Shown here one piece after another: positions 16,398 to 44,444 of a DNA stretch of 64,000 nucleotides. Under the pieces are notes generated by a model that saw nothing but the letters and a program-made list of their open reading frames with translations, was not told where the DNA came from and made no database searches. Position 1 is the first letter of the stretch, and each line of letters begins with the position of its first letter. A program made the translations under genes and the position numbers. The stretch is from Kondoa subrosea (lineage: Eukaryota), in contig BCIN01000002.1 of assembly GCA_039545335.1 (NCBI GenBank), positions 2,634,678-2,698,677 of the forward strand, read 5' to 3'.

Positions 16398-18427
<2,030 letters not shown>

Positions 18428-31836: not shown

Positions 31837-34800
31837 ATGAGTTTCGCGTATTCGGCAGCGCCAATCAGGCGTGTAAAAGAAATACAATTCGGTGTACTCG
31901 CGCCAGAGGAAATCAAAGCCCAATCCAGTGTCAATGTCGTTTTCCCTGAAACCATGGAGGAAGGGACAATGAGACCTAAAGTTGGTGGTCTATCGGATCC
32001 TAGAATGGGCACCATCGATAGGTTTGTTACAACATGAGCGTATGTTCATGCTTGCGCCTTTGCTTAATACGGCAAAGCAGAAACTACAAGTGCCAAACTT
32101 GCGGTGAAGGCTCAGCTACTTGTCCTGGTCATTTTGGTCACATTGAGCTTGGGAGACCGGTGTATCACGTTGGTTAGTGAGGAGCAGGGTGCCTCAGCAT
32201 TAGCTGATGTCTGGCGTTGTGACGCAAAGGATTCTTGAACAAAGTCAAAAAGATCATCGAATGCGTTTGTGTGCAATGCGGCAAACTCAAGGTCGATCTA
32301 TCGTGAGCTGAATTGCCGTATTGGTTTATTTTGAGCTGATCAAACTTACAGCGACCCAAAATTGCGGGAAATTGTCAAAGTTGTCAAGAACCCAAAGAAA
32401 CGGCTGTTGTTTGTGCATTCGCTCGCAAAGGTAAATCTCACTGCGTTGCGAACTTTGAATCGAGGTTAATCATGCATTGATCTACAGGGCAAAAACATCT
32501 GCGAGCCGGATGATCCAGAAGCTGAAGATCCTTTGCCAGACGACGAAGCTAAGAAGACCAAAGAAGCAGCTGGCGTCGAAAGCAATACTCAAAAAGGTCG
32601 ACACGGAGGATGTGGGCATCGACAACCTGTGTGTCGAAAAGAAGGCTTGAAACTCTTCCTTGTGTACCAACGTCAGTCGGAAGATGATGAGGACAAAAAA
32701 GGACCAAAAACTCTAGATAAAGTCGCTCTACCTGCCTCTGCTTGTTTGACCATTCTACGCAAAATGTCTACCGAAGATGTTACCCTCATGGGATTGAGCG
32801 TGGATGAAGCTAGACCTGAATGGATGATCTTGACTGTCATGCCTGTTCCTCCTCCACCTGTTCGACCTAGTGTGGCTATAGATGGTGGTGCTACGAGAGG
32901 AGAAGATGATTTGACTTACAAGCTGGCGGAAATTATTAAAGCCAACGCAAGTCTGAAACGGCTTGAAGGCGAAGGCGCTCCCGCACATGTCTTGAATGAA
33001 TTCGAGGCTCTGTTACAGGTAGATTTAGTCACAAAGGGTTGCAATTGGAGCTAATCTAGGCTGCAGTGGCATATCGCTACTTACATGGACAACAATCTTC
33101 CTGGTCAGCCACAAGCAATGCAGAAGTCCGGTCGTCCTATCAAATCCATCAGAGCGCGATTGAAGGGGAAAGAAGGCCGTCTTCGTGGTAATCTGATGGG
33201 AAAGCGTGTGGACTTTTCAGCGCGAACTGTCATTACCGGTGATCCAAACATCGATTTGGATGAAGTCGGAGTACCTCGGTCTATCGCTATGAATCTGACC
33301 TACCCTGAAAGAGTTACACCTTGGAATCTCGATTACCTCCAAGATCTGGTCAACAGAGGTGCAAACGAACATCCTGGTGCTCGTTATGTGATCAAGGACA
33401 CTGGAGACCGGATAGATCTGCGGCATACCACCAGCTCACCTGTTCTGCTTCAGTATGGATGGATAGTAGAACGCCATTTGCGGAACGGTGATCTTGTGCT
33501 GTTCAATCGACAACCTTCTTTGCACAAAATGAGTATGAGTGAGTTGATGCACCATCTCGTGGGACATCACTGATGAGGTATCAGTGGCACATCGTGTGAA
33601 AATCATGCCTTATTCTACATTCCGTCTAAATCTTTCCGTTACCGTATGTTTCATTTTTTGCCTGCTCTTCATAGGCTCATGGCATTTTGTAGTCACCATA
33701 CAACGCCGAGTAAGTATGCCAACAGTTGTTTTTGAACAACTGCCTGACACTTGCTTGCCTCTTCTAGTTTCGACGGTGATGAGATGAACTTGCATGTTCC
33801 TCAATCCGAAGAAACAAGAGCCGAGCTTTCGCAAATCGCTTGGGTTCCTCGGCAAATTATCTCTCCTCAAGCCAACAAGCCAGTCATGGGTATTGTGCAA
33901 GACACGCTTTGTGGCATTCGAAAATTCACTTTACGAGATTGCTTTCTGGAGCACGACTTCGTTCAGAACATTCTTCTATGGGTTCCTGGCTGGGACGGTC
34001 TGGTTCCGCCTCCTGCTATTTTCAAACCGAAACCGCTTTGGACCGGCAAGCAGATTCTCACTATGTGTATCCCTAAGGGTATCAATATTCGTGGAGCGGA
34101 CGATTCAACTCTTCATCCTTCCAATCCTATGGACCGAGGCACATGGATAGAAAATGGCGAAATTGTTTATGGTGTTGTGCTCAAGAAAATCGCTGGTGCT
34201 TCAGCCGGTGGTTTGGTCGATACCGTTTTCCGAGAAAAGGGTCCGGAAGCATGCAGAGATTTCTTCGGAGCTGTGCAGAAGGTGTGAACGAGTCTTTCAA
34301 CCATATTATCATAATTGAGTCGATAACAGGTTGTCAACTATTGGCTTCTGCACAATGGCTTTTCCATCGGTATTGGTGACACAATTGCTGATACCGCAAC
34401 CAATGCAGCCATCACCAACTTCATTTCGACGGCCAAAAATAAAGTCAGCGAACTGATAAGTGACGCTCAAATGGACAAGCTCGATGCTCTGCCTGGTATG
34501 ACGATTCGTGAATCCTTCGAATCGAAAGTCAATACTGCACTCAATCAAGCTCGTGATAACGCGGGTAAATCAGCAGAAGAGAGTTTGAAGAACGACAACA
34601 ATGTCAAACAAATGGTTGTAGCAGGTTCAAAAGGTTCTTTCATCAACATCTCGCAAATGTCTGCTTGTGTTGGTCAACAAAGTGTGGAAGGCAAACGTAT
34701 TCCATTCGGCTTCAAATATCGAACTCTTCCGCATTTCGCCAAAGATGACTATTCACCCGAATCTCGTGGATTTGTCGAGAATTCCTACTTGCGAGGTCTT

Positions 34801-37800
34801 ACACCACAAGAGTTCTTCTTCCACGCTATGGCTGGTCGAGAAGGTCTTATCGATACAGCTGTCAAGACTGCGGAAACCGGTTATATTCAGCGTCGTTTGG
34901 TCAAGGCTTTGGAAGACGTCGGAGTTGCGTACGATGGAACAGTCCGCAATTCGCTCAACTACATCATTCAATTCGTTTATGGTGAGGACGGAATGGATGG
35001 TGGCGCTTTCGAAGAACAGAGGCTACTTCCTCATACTCTTTCCGATGCTCGTTTCGAAAAGACCTATCGTATCGATTTAACAGAAGAAGGCTGGGGCTTT
35101 TCTCCTGGTACTCTTCAAGTCGGTCTTGACAGCTCTTCTATCGCACTACAGGAGAAACTCGATGCGGAATTCGAGCAATTGACGAAAGACCGAAGGCTTC
35201 TGCGCGAATTTATCTTTGAAGCAAATGATCCAAAGATTCATCTGCCCGTCAACATTCCTCGTATTGTTCAGAATGCCTGCCAAATCTTCCACATTGATCA
35301 TCGAAAAGCCTCAGATCTACCGCCGGCAGATATTGTGGACATGGTTGCTGCGCTGTGTGAACGTCTGATTGTCGTACGTGGAAACGACGCAATTAGTCGG
35401 GAAGCACAAATCAATGTCACTCTACTTCTTCGCATGCATTTGCGCGCAAATTTGGCCGCAAGAAGGATATTGGAAGAAAACCACTTGAATCGAGAAGCAT
35501 TCGAATGGGTTCTAGGAGAAGTTGAAACACGATTCAACCAATCGCTGGTTGCACCTGGCGAGATGTGCGGTACTTTGGCAGCTCAATCTATCGGTGAACC
35601 AGCTACACAGATGACGCTCAACACTTTCCATTATGCCGGTGTATCTTCGAAGAATGTCACCTTGGGTGTACCACGTCTGAAGGAAATCATCAACGTGGCT
35701 CGCAACCTGAAGACGCCTGTCACTTATGTTTACCTACAACCAGATTTGGCTCGAGATGTACAAAAGGCAAAATCTGTTCAAACGACTTTGGCTCACACTA
35801 CTCTTCGGACTGTCACTGCTTCTGTCGAAATTTTCTACGATCCGGTCATCACGTCAACGGTCATAGAAGACGATCGCGACTTCGTGGACGCTTTCTTCGC
35901 TATTCCAGATCCTGAAATCGAGCAAACTATCGACCGACAATCTTCGTGGCTTCTCCGCTTCGAACTCGATCGCGCAAAAATGCTTGACAAGAATCTAGAA
36001 ATGAGTCAAGTTGCAAATTGCATTTCTTTAGTCTTCGATAAAGACTTATTCGTTATCTGGTCTGAAGACAACGCTGAGAAGCTGGTCATTCGATGTCGAG
36101 CGGTCAATGATGAGAAAGATGCTGAAGGCGATGACGAAGATCAGCTGTTGAAGCAGCTTGAAGCGTCGATGTTGAGCGATGTCACGCTCGGCGGTATCAC
36201 TGGCATCGACCGAGTCTTCATGATTGAAAAGCCAAGACAGCGAATCAACGAAGAAGGAGTCTTGACTAGGCAAGACGAATGGGTACTTGAAACAGACGGT
36301 ATCAACCTGAAGCGGGTTCTTTGCGTTGAAGGCGTTGATGCGGTTAGGACCTATTCCAACTCTTGCGTCGAAGTAACAGAAGTGCTTGGTATCGAAGCTG
36401 GCCGTGCCTCTTTACTCAGAGAATTGCGGCAAGTTATCGAATTTGACGGTTCCTATGTCAATTATCGCCATCTTTCACTACTTTGCGATCTGATGACAAG
36501 TCGAGGCTCTTTGATGGCTATCAGTCGACACGGTATCAATAGAGCAGATACTGGAGCTCTTATGCGCTGTACTTTCGAAGAAACTGTCGAAATTCTAATG
36601 GAGGCTGCTGCAATCGGAGAGAAAGATGATTGCAAAGGTGTGGGACAGAACATTCTTCTTGCTCAACTGGCCCCTCTTGGTACCGGAACGTGCAGTATGT
36701 CTTTTATTCCAGTCAAGTACGCATGTTGACTTGCCGTAGGCGTTATGCTCGACGTCGATATGCTCAAGGATGTTGTGCTGGATCATCGATTACCGGTTTC
36801 TGCATTGATGTCAGAGCAGCCATTGACCGGTGGCATGGTAAGTGCAGGTCAAGAATTGTTCTGATCGATCCTGATCCCATTAACTTTCTAGACGCCCGGG
36901 GGTGGAGCAACGCCTTATCAAGATGGTGGCAGAACACCTGGACATCAGACTGAGGAGGGCATGGCTGCCTATTCGCCTGTACATCATCCTGGCAACGAAT
37001 CTTTTGCTGGCAACACAACTGTTTATGGTGGATATGGTCAGAGTCCTGCTTACGCAACTTCGCCGGGCTACTCTCCAACCTCACCTTATAATCCTGGAGG
37101 AGCCACATCGCCTTACTACGCTTCGCCAGCCTCCCCTGCTATGTTTGGTGCAGCATCGCCTTATGGTGCTGGAGCTGCTTCGCCCTGGGTTGATCGAAAT
37201 GCAGCTGCTGGAGGCTACTCACCTTCGTCTCCTCGCTTTGGCATTAGTAGTCCTGCTTTCGGCACATCGCCTAGCAGGTGAGCTTTCCGTCTTGGCTAGA
37301 GGAATATTGCTAATTTGTTCGAAAGCCCTCGATTCAGTCCTGCGAGTCCTTCTTTTTCTCCAAGTTCTCCATCTTTTTCGCCCGCTTCACCTAGATTGCA
37401 AATTATCTCCTCTTTCCCTTTTTTTGCAAAGCTGACGATTTCTTTAGCTCTCCAACTTCGCCAAACATGTCGCCGTAAGCTTTCGTAGCAATGTGGCATG
37501 GACAGCAAGCTGATCTATCTGTTCACAGGAGTTCACCGAGATATAGCGTGCGTTTCGCTTTTAATACTTTTTTTGCAATCTGATAGAATGGCCGCAGCCA
37601 ACATCTCCTAAGTATAGCCCAACTTCTCCCAATTATAGCCCAAGCAGCCCTCGTTTTTCGTAAGTTTTATTGTCATGGAGTGGTCGTGCAAGGAGTCTGA
37701 CATTTCTGCTTGAAAGCCCTGCTGGAGCCATGGCGTCGCCTACTTCACCTCGTTGCAAGTTTATCCCTTCCACATGTTTTAATTGCGCTAAGCATGATTG

Positions 37801-41534: not shown

Positions 41535-42061
41535 CTGGATACAAGGCGCGATGAGGATTAAAGGGCTGAGAAGGAAGTATGAGATGAGGCTTCTACAAGA
41601 AGAGAGAAGATCGCGTTGATAAATCGAGAGAGCGGTGCCCAAAAACAAGCAGTGTTTGGAACGAACGTGGGCAGCGAAAACGTTCGACTTGGCTATGGAA
41701 CGACAATGACAAGCTGGAAAGATGGCAGAGCAAGAAGGAAAAGCCACAAGGCAGTGCGTAGCCACATCAGCCAACATCAGTTTCATTCGAAATCCTAAAA
41801 TGGTTATGGGCTGTTTTGAGCAAAAGGTTACTGACTTCGCGATCTGTCGCGTCGCAAGCCTGGACTGAAGTAGCTTGTGTGTGAGGAAAGTGCAATGGGA
41901 CAGCATTACGCTCTTTTAAGAGGAAGTGTCTTGCATCGCTATTGGCAATTTGCAAACAACCTTTTGATAGGCCTTTGATCGTTGCTTGTCTCTATTCGGC
42001 GATACGAAGACAGTAGCTATACCAGACTCGTCCAAGAAGGGTTCGAGAATCGCCTCGAGCC

Positions 42062-44246
42062 ATGCTCAGAGCTGCTTTGGCGCATCAGGTCGACGAGTTG
42101 CGATCTGGCCAAAACACGCCTTTTGGAGTACCTCACATCTCGCTATCAGAGGCTAGCGAGTCGCCGAAGAGTCACTCTCCCGCTCTCCTCTCTAATGCTT
42201 TCACTTCTTCTTCTTCTTTCGTTCCCGTCACGCCGGACGAGCATGCTGTGTCCAGCGTTATAATATCAGGAGGTGCTTGTGCTCGTTGTTTTGTATGAGG
42301 GAGACTGACAAGGGAATCGCTCCTAGGCTCTGGAGCAAATCGCCTTGTTGACGCTTTCTTAGCTTTATCGACTACCTGCTCTTTCATTCTACCCATATCA
42401 GATAACGGAGGATCCTCGTCTGAGCTCATCAGAGTGATTGGGGGGCCTTCAGGTATGTTTCGGAGTCTGTTTTTTTTTCTTCTTTTCTTATTTGCTCATC
42501 CGTCAATTTTCGCCGAGCAGTTGGCGATATCCGCTCTCGTTTGATTCGACTTATCCCTCAAGCTCCTTATGGAAGTCCTGCAGAACGAATCAAAAATCTT
42601 TTATCGCATCGCCTATCGAGCACAGCATCATCTCAACAAGTCAAAGCTGATTGGCTTGCTATCGTTGAAGGCACCTCGCCGTTATGGCAAGGGATACCGG
42701 CCGAAAGACGAGAAACGTTTGTTTTTAAAATTGTATGGTTGAGGCAAGAGCTCAATGTAATTGCAGCATTAGAGCATTTCTGGTACATCTTGAATCGGAA
42801 TTATTGAAGCGAGCTCGTCCGTGTCTGTGCTTTTGATACCGTCCTATACTGATCTATTTGAATATAATAGAGTAAGTACCGCGTGCAGACGCTCTGCTCA
42901 AGCTTATTGACATGCTTGGAACAAAGCAAGCGCTTCAATTTTCGCAATGGCAGCGTATGTCTGACAGGTCTCTTGATCACGATACGACTACTCATAGCCT
43001 CGCTGCTTGATTACATACAGATAGGCAATTTCTTTCTCTCCGGGGCTATCTCCTTCTTTCGTTCGCTCGAGTCGGCAGTTTTTCTCTTCTCTGCCTTGAC
43101 GGCAATACCCGTAGGTCGTATACGACGAGATAGAAAATATTTATATCGTGCTCACCGTAACATATAGGAAAGAGCTCGAGTTATCCCATGCGTTTTCACC
43201 AAGTCTGTCACTTAAATTTCGCACAACTTAGAACTAATGGAATCGAAAGCTCTGTTGCTACCATTGCTGCGGAACTACAAGATGGTTCTCGTATAATAGG
43301 GCAGAATGATATTTCGCATCCTCAACAAAAGCAATCAAGCGAATCCATAGCTATCTTCGAGGGCCAGCCTATGCTTTTAGTAAGTCCCAGCCGCGAGTTA
43401 AAGCAAATCAGGGCCAACAGTCTACAGGGAGATGACGATGGGCTTGGAATATCCACACCTGGCGAATCGACAGATGAACGGCCAGACGAAGTCTTGTCCA
43501 TGTTGGTAAACAAGATGGATGAGTATACACTTAGATCACCCATCAAGGATATCCATTACATCAACTCTTTTGGCAGACAAGTATGTCAGGTCCATCATGA
43601 TTGATCAGGTTCTGATTGAGTTACAGGTCTTCCCCAAGCCTAATCCAAATTATATAAAGAGCTTGCTGTCATCAAAGCTATTGATCTATTCTTGCGTAAG
43701 CAGTGTTTGATAGTAAATGACTTTTAGCTGAACAAAGGAGTAGGGCTCGCTCTGGACAAGCATCATTCCTTGTTTGGCACTTCGAGGCGTTGGAAGGGCT
43801 GTAAATTTTCAATCTCCTCTTCATTCAAGCCGCTCAAATTGTGTCCAGATTGCAACCTCGCCAACGTTGAAATACAAAGTGCTACTACTCAACAGCTTGC
43901 CAGATCGGGAAACACCTAGCGGAACAAATGGTTTAGACTTTATCACTGCTATTCAGAAGTGCTTGAACAAGAATCTGGAAGTGGAAGATACAAATGCAGC
44001 TGTCCGATTTGCAGCTCATGACTATATGTGAGCTCCATCACGACCTCGGATTAGTAGTTCTTCACTGATTACCCGGCAAGAACGCATGTTATCTATCTTC
44101 GTGGCTCGCGTATTAAAATCGATGACCCGCAAGCAATCGAAGCGCTAGGCATTAGCCTTGTAGAAATTGAAAGTGGGTATGCGGAGAAACCGCTGTTTGA
44201 TGAACAAAATGTGTACGATGCTTTGAAGTGTATATTACAAGAGTGA
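42062..44246 (+). CDS. CofD/UPF0052-family protein (YNL011C-like)
   Basis: IISGGSGAN, LPISDNGGSSSELIRVIGGPSVGDIRSRL, FNFRNGSIGNFFL, IGQNDISHP, YSCGSLWTSIIPCL, LLNSLPDRET. Confidence 0.88.
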
Positions 44247-44444
44247 ACGAATGAATGTTATATGGAAGCAGATACGCGACAATAGGTCGAGCATTGAATT
44301 GCATAACTTCAAGCTTGCATTTTGTTCCCTACAACATCAAGATATTCCCAAACAAACAAGATACGAAAACTTCTTACAACCCTTTTCAAGCCAACCTCAG
44401 GCATCTCCCTCTATGTGTACGCTGTACGCCTTCTTTCCCTCCGT

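What the first reader, a model, noticed from the sequence alone, without database searches (positions are those of the whole stretch)
42817..42926. Apparent single-nucleotide exon (A at 42871) in the CofD/UPF0052 gene
Seen: two back-to-back normal-sized introns, 42817-42870 (54 nt; GTCCGT..branch ACTGAT..AATAG) and 42872-42926 (55 nt; GTAAGT..ATTGAC..AAAG), separated by one A. Including it gives GCT C|A|C AAG CGC TTC AAT TTT CGC AAT GGC AGC = ..LLKRAHKRFNFRNGS, which runs in frame into IGNFFL. Skipping it from the same donor frameshifts. The GTCCGT donor also appears in the OYE gene of this window. Established: 1-nt exons are very rare (Arabidopsis APC11 is the described case) and annotation pipelines miss them. 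Inference: this organism splices by pure intron definition, with effectively no lower exon-size limit.
Basis: partly seen in the sequence, partly recalled or inferred. Interest (0 to 1): 0.85.

Follow-up and report, generated by a model that had tools for sequence, protein, structure and literature searches.

The report
One-base exon in a fungal gene
A basidiomycete gene of the CofD/UPF0052 family almost certainly keeps a single A between two ordinary short introns to rebuild a conserved histidine codon, a rare but already described kind of exon that gene predictors miss.

Summary
GTCCGT starts at 42817, a lone A sits at 42871, GTAAGT starts at 42872 and an AG ends at 42926.

The comparative evidence supports the one-base exon:
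- In 78 of 80 related metagenome loci the site is uninterrupted, with exactly one codon between "RA" and "K". That codon is His in 70 of the 78. Only the model keeping the single A gives one codon, and it gives CAC (His).
- The model ranks first of 63 in-frame GT/GC-AG models (110.0 bits, against 101.3 for the best single intron).
- It scores 10-19 BLOSUM62 units higher than the single-intron model against all 7 homologs that span the site.
- The two introns are 54 and 55 nt. Twenty homology-checked introns in the window measure 45-68 nt, so a single 106-nt intron would be an outlier.
- No close match arose by chance: 0 of 100,000 random 110-nt introns carried a central split as strong as this one.

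No transcript data could be obtained, so the splice is inferred, not shown.

One-base exons are already in print for Arabidopsis APC11, Fusarium CYP621A and 13 Coprinopsis genes. This is a new member of a known kind.

The parts
42062..44246 (+). Host gene: CofD/UPF0052-like protein. 12 exons, 528 aa under the one-base-exon model.
   Evidence: Hand model checked by translation and by alignment to homologs. It is 48% identical to P0002 over 469 aligned residues, spanning window residues 16-528 of 528. Homologs carry PF01933.
42767..42816 (+). Exon 4 (50 nt). It ends ...GCT C, the first base of the His codon.
   Evidence: It encodes IRAFLVHLESELLKRA, which matches relatives (PSSM score 49.8).
42817..42870 (+). 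Intron 4a, 54 nt. Donor GTCCGT, branch-like CTGAT at 42849-42853 (A at 42852, 18 nt from the 3' end), acceptor ATAG.
   Evidence: Donor score 3.41 bits (2 of 20 checked introns score lower). Acceptor score 4.42 bits (15 of 20 score lower).
42871..42871 (+). One-base exon: A, the middle base of the His codon C-A-C.
   Evidence: Keeping it is the only GT-AG solution that leaves one codon at a site where 78 of 78 relatives have one codon, His in 70.
42872..42926 (+). Intron 4b, 55 nt. Donor GTAAGT, branch-like TTGAC at 42907-42911 (A at 42910, 16 nt from the 3' end), acceptor AAAG.
   Evidence: Donor score 8.6 bits (18 of 20 checked introns score lower). Acceptor score 0.03 bits (2 of 20 score lower).
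42927..42954 (+). Exon 6 (28 nt). It starts with C, the last base of the His codon, then encodes KRFNFRNGS.
   Evidence: (PSSM score 30.6).
42821..42832 (+). Competing tandem GT sites just inside intron 4a: GTGTCT at 42821, GTCTGT at 42823, GTGCTT at 42827.
   Evidence: Each gives a product 1-4 residues longer than every relative. GTGTCT has C at +5, which 0 of 20 checked donors have.

Best explanation
The pre-mRNA of this CofD/UPF0052-like gene carries two separate, ordinary short spliceosomal introns, 42817-42870 and 42872-42926. They interrupt a single histidine codon after its first and after its second base. The A at 42871 is kept as a one-base exon, and the mature mRNA reads GCT-CAC-AAG (Ala-His-Lys).

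Most likely mechanism (inferred): each intron is recognised across its own roughly 55 nt (intron definition). The 3' site of the first intron and the 5' site of the second overlap within the footprint of the splicing factors, so the two are probably removed one after the other, not at once. Either order gives the same product.

If the A is missed, by splicing from 42817 to 42926, the frame shifts and translation stops after 204 residues.

Neither intron is present in any of the 78 more distant relatives examined, so both arose within the window's own lineage.
For: Shown by sequence:
- All four splice sites, both branch-like motifs and the lengths are as stated.
- The model gives an uninterrupted 528-aa frame that aligns end to end with full-length homologs.

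Shown by comparison:
- 78 of 80 metagenome loci have the site uninterrupted, with exactly one codon between RA and K/R: CAC 54, CAT 16, CAA 3, CAG 2, AAC 2, GAC 1. These make 59 distinct DNA segments. The other 2 loci lack the region.
- 23 of 31 homologous proteins with both flanking motifs have the 34-residue spacing that only this model gives. Four of the other 8 (P0005, P0009, P0055, P0056) are longer because an intron elsewhere is read through, and they still show one residue at the site. P0006 has its extra residue upstream of the site. P0047 is garbled.
- The two closest relatives that cover the site, P0003 (72% identical over 185 residues) and P0284, read KRAHKRF and RANKRF.
- Against a profile of the segment this model ranks 1st of 63 in-frame, stop-free GT/GC-AG models, at 110.0 bits. 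The best single intron scores 101.3 bits.
- It scores 10-19 BLOSUM62 units higher than the single-intron model against 7 of 7 homologs that span the site.

Intron statistics:
- 20 homology-checked introns (9 in this gene, 11 in RPB1) are 45-68 nt, median 51.5 nt.
- 17 of 20 have G at +5, as GTCCGT does. The rival GTGTCT has C there, which 0 of 20 have.

Chance control: 0 of 100,000 random 110-nt introns carried a central split as strong as this one with A, and 221 did under lax thresholds.

Precedent: one-base exons with transcript support are reported in Arabidopsis (PMC4674806, Discussion read), in Fusarium (PMC12940212) and 13 times in Coprinopsis (PMC12230235).
Against: - No transcript evidence. 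No RNA run was listed and no whole genome or reads were available.
- The splice-site scores alone do not pick this model. GTCCGT is weak (3.41 bits). The neighbouring GTCTGT at 42823 scored slightly higher (4.1). The AAAG acceptor is weak (0.03 bits).
- Insertions at this exact site do occur in two divergent homologs out of 31 (sequences seen). One of them, P0139, reads KRARPSS, which resembles the rival product KRARPKRF.
- The 78 loci are distant relatives, 34-62% identical to P0003 in their best segment, and the window lies outside the Agaricomycetes on the RPB1 tree. They therefore say little about the closest kin. The DNA of the closest relatives (P0001, P0003, P0284) could not be fetched.
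- The order of intron removal and the intron-definition mechanism are inferences from the literature, not from data on this locus.
Confidence: 0.82

Rival explanations
1. A single 106-nt intron from the GTGTCT donor at 42821 to the AG at 42926. This gives KRARPKRF, one residue longer, with no His.
For: It is in frame and stop-free, and gives a 529-aa product. It is the best single-intron model at 101.3 bits. One divergent homolog, P0139, reads KRARPSS at this place.
Against: It leaves two codons where 78 of 78 relatives have one. It scores 8.7 bits lower than the one-base-exon model and 10-19 BLOSUM62 units lower against 7 of 7 homologs. A 106-nt intron is 1.56 times the longest of 20 checked introns. 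Its donor has C at +5, seen in 0 of 20. It would also leave a strong AG-A-GTAAGT split in the middle of the intron by chance, which happened in 0 of 100,000 random introns.
Confidence: 0.06
2. The one-base exon is used, but from another of the tandem donors. For example GTCTGT at 42823 gives KRARPYKRF.
For: The GTCTGT donor scored 4.1 bits, against 3.4 for GTCCGT. The model is in frame at 100.3 bits.
Against: It is two residues longer than every one of the 78 relatives and scores 9.7 bits below the top model.
Confidence: 0.03
3. Assembly or sequencing error. One base is missing near a boundary, and the true gene has one roughly 110-nt intron, or the locus differs from what is written.
For: Reads could not be inspected. 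A plain 42817-42926 intron leaves the frame exactly one base short.
Against: It needs an atypically long intron. It also needs a chance AG-A-GTAAGT in its centre that supplies exactly the base required for the consensus His (0 of 100,000 at the observed strength, 221 of 100,000 at lax thresholds). The rest of the gene is intact over 12 exons.
Confidence: 0.04
4. A single 109-nt intron with non-canonical ends: GT...AA (42817-42925) or TC...AG (42818-42926). This would give CGC (Arg) as the one codon.
For: It also leaves exactly one codon. This follows from reading the sequence.
Against: The borders are non-canonical, whereas all 20 checked introns are GT-AG. Arg is seen in 0 of 78 relatives at this codon. 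The intron would be twice the usual length.
Confidence: 0.01
5. The gene is a decaying pseudogene with a frameshift at this point.
For: Only the apparent one-base deficit under the 42817-42926 splice.
Against: All other exons are open and align end to end with homologs at 47-51% identity. The two closest but partial relatives are 72-79% identical.
Confidence: 0.01

Closest known systems
Arabidopsis thaliana APC11 single-nucleotide exon (Guo and Liu 2015, PMC4674806; abstract and Discussion read)
   Same: One base is kept between two canonical introns and is needed for the reading frame. The authors argue for intron definition with the two introns removed one after the other.
   Different: That case is in a plant and is shown by cDNA and GFP reporters. 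Here the host is a basidiomycete fungus, both introns are about 55 nt, and the evidence is comparative only.
Fusarium CYP621A one-nucleotide exon (Nelson and Syed 2026, PMC12940212; abstract and Discussion read)
   Same: A fungal gene in which a phase-1 boundary and a phase-2 boundary are bridged by one base. That base is the middle base of a conserved codon, and it was inferred from alignment to an intron-free relative. This is the same logic as used here.
   Different: That exon is a G in AG-G-GT, it is conserved in 24 genes, and it is confirmed in SRA reads. Here the base is an A in AG-A-GT, it is seen in one genome, no reads were available, and the host gene family is different.
Coprinopsis cinerea long-read annotation: 13 exons of 1 nt, 57 of 2 nt, 27 of 3 nt (PMC12230235; passages read)
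   Same: A basidiomycete with short introns in which one-base internal exons are supported by full-length transcripts.
   Different: I could not see which genes they are. The supplementary PDFs could not be read here and the three spreadsheets were not opened. The window's organism lies outside the Agaricomycetes on the RPB1 tree.
Recursive splice sites / zero-length exons (ratchet points), as summarised in PMC4674806
   Same: An acceptor is directly followed by a donor, and removal proceeds in steps.
   Different: At a ratchet point no base is kept, and the purpose is to remove very long introns. Here one base is kept and both introns are short.
Spliceosomal twin introns (stwintrons) of filamentous fungi
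   Same: Two introns in immediate contact in a fungal gene, probably spliced in sequence.
   Different: In a stwintron the inner intron interrupts a splice motif of the outer one, so the outer site exists only after the first splice. Here both donors, both acceptors and both branch motifs are intact in the primary transcript.

Membership tests
One-base (single-nucleotide) exon | Two introns with canonical GT...AG ends abut a single retained base | tested here: met
   The introns are 42817-42870 and 42872-42926, with A at 42871.
One-base (single-nucleotide) exon | Each flanking intron is a plausible stand-alone intron for this organism in length, donor, branch and acceptor | tested here: met
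   They are 54 and 55 nt, against 45-68 nt for 20 checked introns. CTGAT lies 18 nt and TTGAC 16 nt from the 3' ends. All four site scores fall inside the leave-one-out range of the checked set, though two are near its low end.
One-base (single-nucleotide) exon | Keeping the base is needed for the frame and restores the residue and spacing seen in relatives without the introns | tested here: met
   Skipping it gives a stop after 204 aa. 78 of 78 relatives have one codon there, His in 70. The model ranks first of 63.
One-base (single-nucleotide) exon | Transcripts show the exon-base-exon junction | not testable with these tools
No genome or reads are held.
CofD/UPF0052 family (Pfam PF01933), the host gene | Match to PF01933 above the gathering score | tested here: inconclusive
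   Single exons of the window do not reach the cut-off. The best is exon 2 at 15.7 bits, against a cut-off of 30. The joined protein could not be handed to the tool. Homologs do reach it: P0002 at 120 bits (48% identical to the window's model end to end) and P0003 at 65.2 bits (72% identical).
Recursive splice site (zero-length exon) | Acceptor AG directly followed by donor GT with no base kept | tested here: not met
   One base, A at 42871, lies between the AG and the GT.
Stwintron (spliceosomal twin intron) | One intron interrupts the donor, acceptor or branch motif of the other, so a site is formed only after the first splice | tested here: not met
   GTCCGT, CTGAT, ATAG, GTAAGT, TTGAC and AAAG are all contiguous in the DNA. 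The definition of a stwintron is recalled, not read here.

The most novel reading that the evidence does not exclude
The one-base exon is young. It was made in this lineage either by two separate intron gains into adjacent positions of one histidine codon or by the splitting of one older intron. Its occasional skipping, which gives a stop after 204 residues, would then act as a built-in off-switch for the gene through unproductive splicing. If close relatives with zero, one and two introns at this codon exist, the locus would show step by step how a one-base exon is born.
Probability: 0.15. Interest if true: 0.55.

Novelty: new member of a known kind. Interest (0 to 1): 0.35.

Why it matters
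Standard gene predictors cannot place a one-base exon. Here they would either break the gene or report a wrong product (Arg-Pro in place of a conserved His).

The case adds a basidiomycete outside the mushroom-forming class, and a housekeeping-type gene family, to the short list of one-base exons.

It is also a clean natural substrate for asking in which order two touching introns are removed: two roughly 55-nt introns, a strong inner donor and four competing outer donors.

It does not open a new question. The phenomenon and the intron-definition argument are already in print.

Tried and rejected
- RNA evidence: no RNA holder was listed for 42060-44250.
- Whole genome: none is held.
- Earlier notes of this scan: nothing for this genome, this sequence or these words. 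The one note returned, on a mitochondrial cox3 frameshift, does not bear on this finding.
- DNA of the closest relatives: the contigs of P0001, P0003 and P0284 were not among the 80 loci kept from the single metagenome scan and could not be fetched by any other open tool.
- Looking for a relative whose called ORF reads through intron 4b: one protein was found, P0284. It shows an intron boundary just upstream of RANK and none at the His/Asn codon.
- Duplication or mobile origin of the two introns: they have no similarity to each other or to anything else in the window beyond 12-nt chance words.
- RNA structure: folding 42800-42945 gives a z-score of -1.66, and 15 of 200 shuffles fold as well. 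A predicted helix, 42821-30 with 42881-90, would cover the competing donors, but it is not significant.
- Window-wide scan for further 1-6 nt exons: 4 hits (two at this locus, one inside RPB1 that disagrees with the homology model, one opposite a minus-strand ORF), against 2-18 in 10 shuffles. There is no enrichment. That scan used a site matrix with two acceptor coordinates off by one. These were corrected.
- The first site matrix and simulation had the same two slips and are superseded.
- The first CDS build had wrong boundaries and is superseded.
- GTCCGT is not over-represented in the window: 9 matches, against 14.7 expected.
- OYE C-terminal exon against solved structures: no match for the 36-aa piece.
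- Literature: searches for UPF0052 or YNL011C together with microexon terms and for '1-nt exon' and similar phrases turned up no paper on this gene family. One search returned 190 papers holding at least 2 of the 4 terms. The 10 listed held only the two microexon terms.
- Supplements of PMC12230235: the list of its 13 one-base exons is probably there, but the files were PDFs that cannot be read here or spreadsheets I did not open.

Full report
**What is in the sequence.**
- Exon 4 ends ...GCT C at 42816.
- GTCCGT opens a 54-nt interval that ends ATAG at 42870.
- A single A follows at 42871.
- GTAAGT opens a 55-nt interval that ends AAAG at 42926.
- The next exon starts C AAG CGC.
- Branch-like motifs sit at usual distances: CTGAT at 42849-42853 (18 nt from the 3' end) and TTGAC at 42907-42911 (16 nt).
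- One correction: the rival GTGTCT donor starts at 42821, so that intron would be 106 nt.

**The gene.** Homologs of exon 3 are fungal proteins that carry Pfam PF01933 (CofD/UPF0052). I built the whole gene by hand and checked it by translation. It runs from the ATG at 42062 to the stop at 44246 and has 12 exons. The introns are 54, 68, 50, 54, 55, 66, 57, 47, 46, 48 and 53 nt, all GT-AG, and the product is 528 aa. An earlier build had boundary slips and is superseded. The product is 48% identical to the full-length homolog P0002 over 469 aligned residues, spanning window residues 16-528. Its single exons are too short to reach the Pfam cut-off (best 15.7 bits), and the joined protein could not be submitted. 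P0002 scores 120 bits and P0003 scores 65.2 bits. Bacterial UPF0052 structures match P0002 (2o2z, 2hzb).

**The comparative test.** I defined the segment from the DR[KR]E motif to the GN motif in the homologous proteins.
- 23 of 31 proteins that have both motifs show exactly 34 residues. This is the length given by the one-base-exon model. The single-intron model gives 35.
- Of the 8 exceptions, four (P0005, P0009, P0055, P0056) read through introns elsewhere and still show one residue between RA and K. P0006 has its extra residue upstream of the site. P0047 is garbled.
- Two divergent proteins (P0084, P0139) really are longer at the site. P0139 reads KRARPSS, which resembles the rival product. 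I count this for the rival.

I then fetched DNA of relatives from metagenome contigs (95 relatives found, the best 80 kept).
- In 78 of 80 loci the site is uninterrupted in the DNA, with exactly three bases between the RA and K/R codons. The other two loci lack the region.
- A second, regex-based count gave the same 78: CAC 54, CAT 16, CAA 3, CAG 2, AAC 2, GAC 1. These make 59 distinct DNA segments.
- In the window the same interval is 112 nt. Removing 54 + 55 nt leaves three bases, C-A-C, which is the commonest codon among the relatives.

**Ranking all splice models.** I listed every one-intron and two-intron GT/GC-AG model in 42790-42950 that is in frame and free of stops. There were 63. I scored them against a profile of the homologous segment.
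- The best single intron (42821-42926) scores 101.3 bits.
- In full-length pairwise alignments the one-base model scores 10-19 BLOSUM62 units higher against all 7 homologs that span the site.
- Splicing from 42817 to 42926 without the A stops after 204 residues.

**Are the two halves normal introns here?** I fixed 11 introns of the RPB1 gene in the same window by alignment to homologs. Together with the 9 other introns of this gene, that makes 20 checked introns.
- Lengths are 45-68 nt, median 51.5 nt. The 54- and 55-nt halves are typical. A 106-nt intron would be 1.56 times the longest.
- G at +5 occurs in 17 of 20 donors. GTCCGT has it. GTGTCT has C there, which none of the 20 have.
- Site scores: GTCCGT 3.41 bits (weak; 2 of 20 lower), GTAAGT 8.6 (18 of 20 lower), ATAG 4.42 (15 of 20 lower), AAAG 0.03 (weak; 2 of 20 lower).

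The site scores alone do not decide among the four tandem GTs at 42817-42832. GTCTGT at 42823 scored 4.1. The choice of 42817 rests on the conserved spacing.

**Chance.** I tested 100,000 random 110-nt introns from a first-order Markov model of the checked introns. 2,516 had some central AG-N-GT split with a branch-like motif, 662 passed lax site scores, 221 also had A, and 0 matched the observed strength. Across the whole window the lax four-site pattern is not enriched: 4 hits, against 2-18 in shuffles (made with a slightly flawed matrix). The pattern is meaningful only because it sits exactly where the frame and the homology need one base.

**Origin.** No relative has an intron at this codon. 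An approximate map of intron positions in the 80 loci shows junctions near residues 109-118, 181-186, 202-207 and 234, and others further on, but none between 187 and 201. The positions near 112, 204 and 234 are shared with the window. The pair at 194.3/194.7 is private to its lineage among what I could sample.

The two introns are unlike each other and unlike anything else in the window. A close relative, P0284, shows an intron boundary just upstream of RANK and not inside the codon.

On an RPB1 tree the window falls outside the Agaricomycetes (that clade has 100/99 support). It groups weakly (82/69) with Pucciniomycotina on a long branch and is at most 74% identical to any row. The 78 loci are therefore distant kin, and the age of the introns is unknown.

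**Mechanism.** This part is inferred.
- With introns of about 50 nt, recognition across the intron is the accepted model for fungi.
- The acceptor of 4a and the donor of 4b lie within three bases of each other, so both complexes can hardly sit there at once.
- Removal one after the other is therefore likely, as argued for Arabidopsis APC11 (PMC4674806, Discussion). Either order gives the same mRNA.
- A fold of the region is unremarkable (z = -1.66).

**What is known.** One-base exons are in print for:
- Arabidopsis APC11.
- Fusarium CYP621A, with SRA support (abstract and Discussion).
- Coprinopsis cinerea, 13 times in the long-read annotation (passage read).
- Plants, where microexon databases cover 1-15 nt (abstract only).

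I found no paper that links this gene family with microexons.

GTCCGT at 18260 follows ...FLGREFM in the OYE gene (PF00724 hits at 17028-17711). If unspliced, a stop follows six codons later. A 56-nt GT-AG interval with CTGAT then restores 36 more codons. This is consistent, but it is not confirmed by a homolog (one search found none). The general claim that there is no lower exon-size limit rests on this case and on a 17-nt exon in RPB1 (33693-33709).

**Verdict.** I put about 0.82 on a real one-base exon. It is inferred from strong comparative evidence and still needs a transcript. It is a new member of a known kind, so interest is moderate to low. Its practical value is for annotation and as a splicing substrate.

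Noticed in passing
window 33693-33709 (+): The RPB1 gene has a 17-nt exon (encoding SPYNA plus two bases) between introns of 49 and 58 nt. It is fixed by alignment to four homologs. It shows that this organism splices very short exons.
   Followed up: partly
window 42817-42832 (+): Four GT sites lie in tandem within 16 nt: GTCCGT, GTGTCT, GTCTGT and GTGCTT. The last hexamer is identical to the donor of intron 1 of the same gene (42273). A predicted but non-significant helix, 42821-30 with 42881-90, would cover three of them.
   Followed up: partly
window 42717-42766 (+), and loci L015-L035 and others: Intron 3 of the window sits after residue 177.7 (ET|I). Many relatives have their intron about 4-6 residues further on, near residues 181-186. 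This could be intron sliding or an independent gain.
   Followed up: partly
protein P0284 (relative; DNA not available): A close relative reads ...NGAQ then RANKRFSFRQGSIGNFF. That implies an intron boundary two to three codons upstream of the His/Asn codon and no introns at the window's positions 204 and 234. Intron positions around this motif vary within the clade.
   Followed up: no
window 31843-37250 (+): The RPB1 gene places the organism outside the Agaricomycetes and weakly with Pucciniomycotina, on a long branch. It is at most 74% identical to any named sequence used. The window comes from a poorly sampled basidiomycete lineage.
   Followed up: partly
window 18260-18315 (+): A second GTCCGT donor candidate opens a 56-nt intron near the 3' end of an OYE-family gene (PF00724 hits at 17028-17711). 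Left unspliced, a stop follows after six codons.
   Followed up: partly
window 42816/42927 join: Skipping the one-base exon gives a stop after 204 residues. Any mis-splicing here would make a transcript of the kind usually cleared by nonsense-mediated decay.
   Followed up: no
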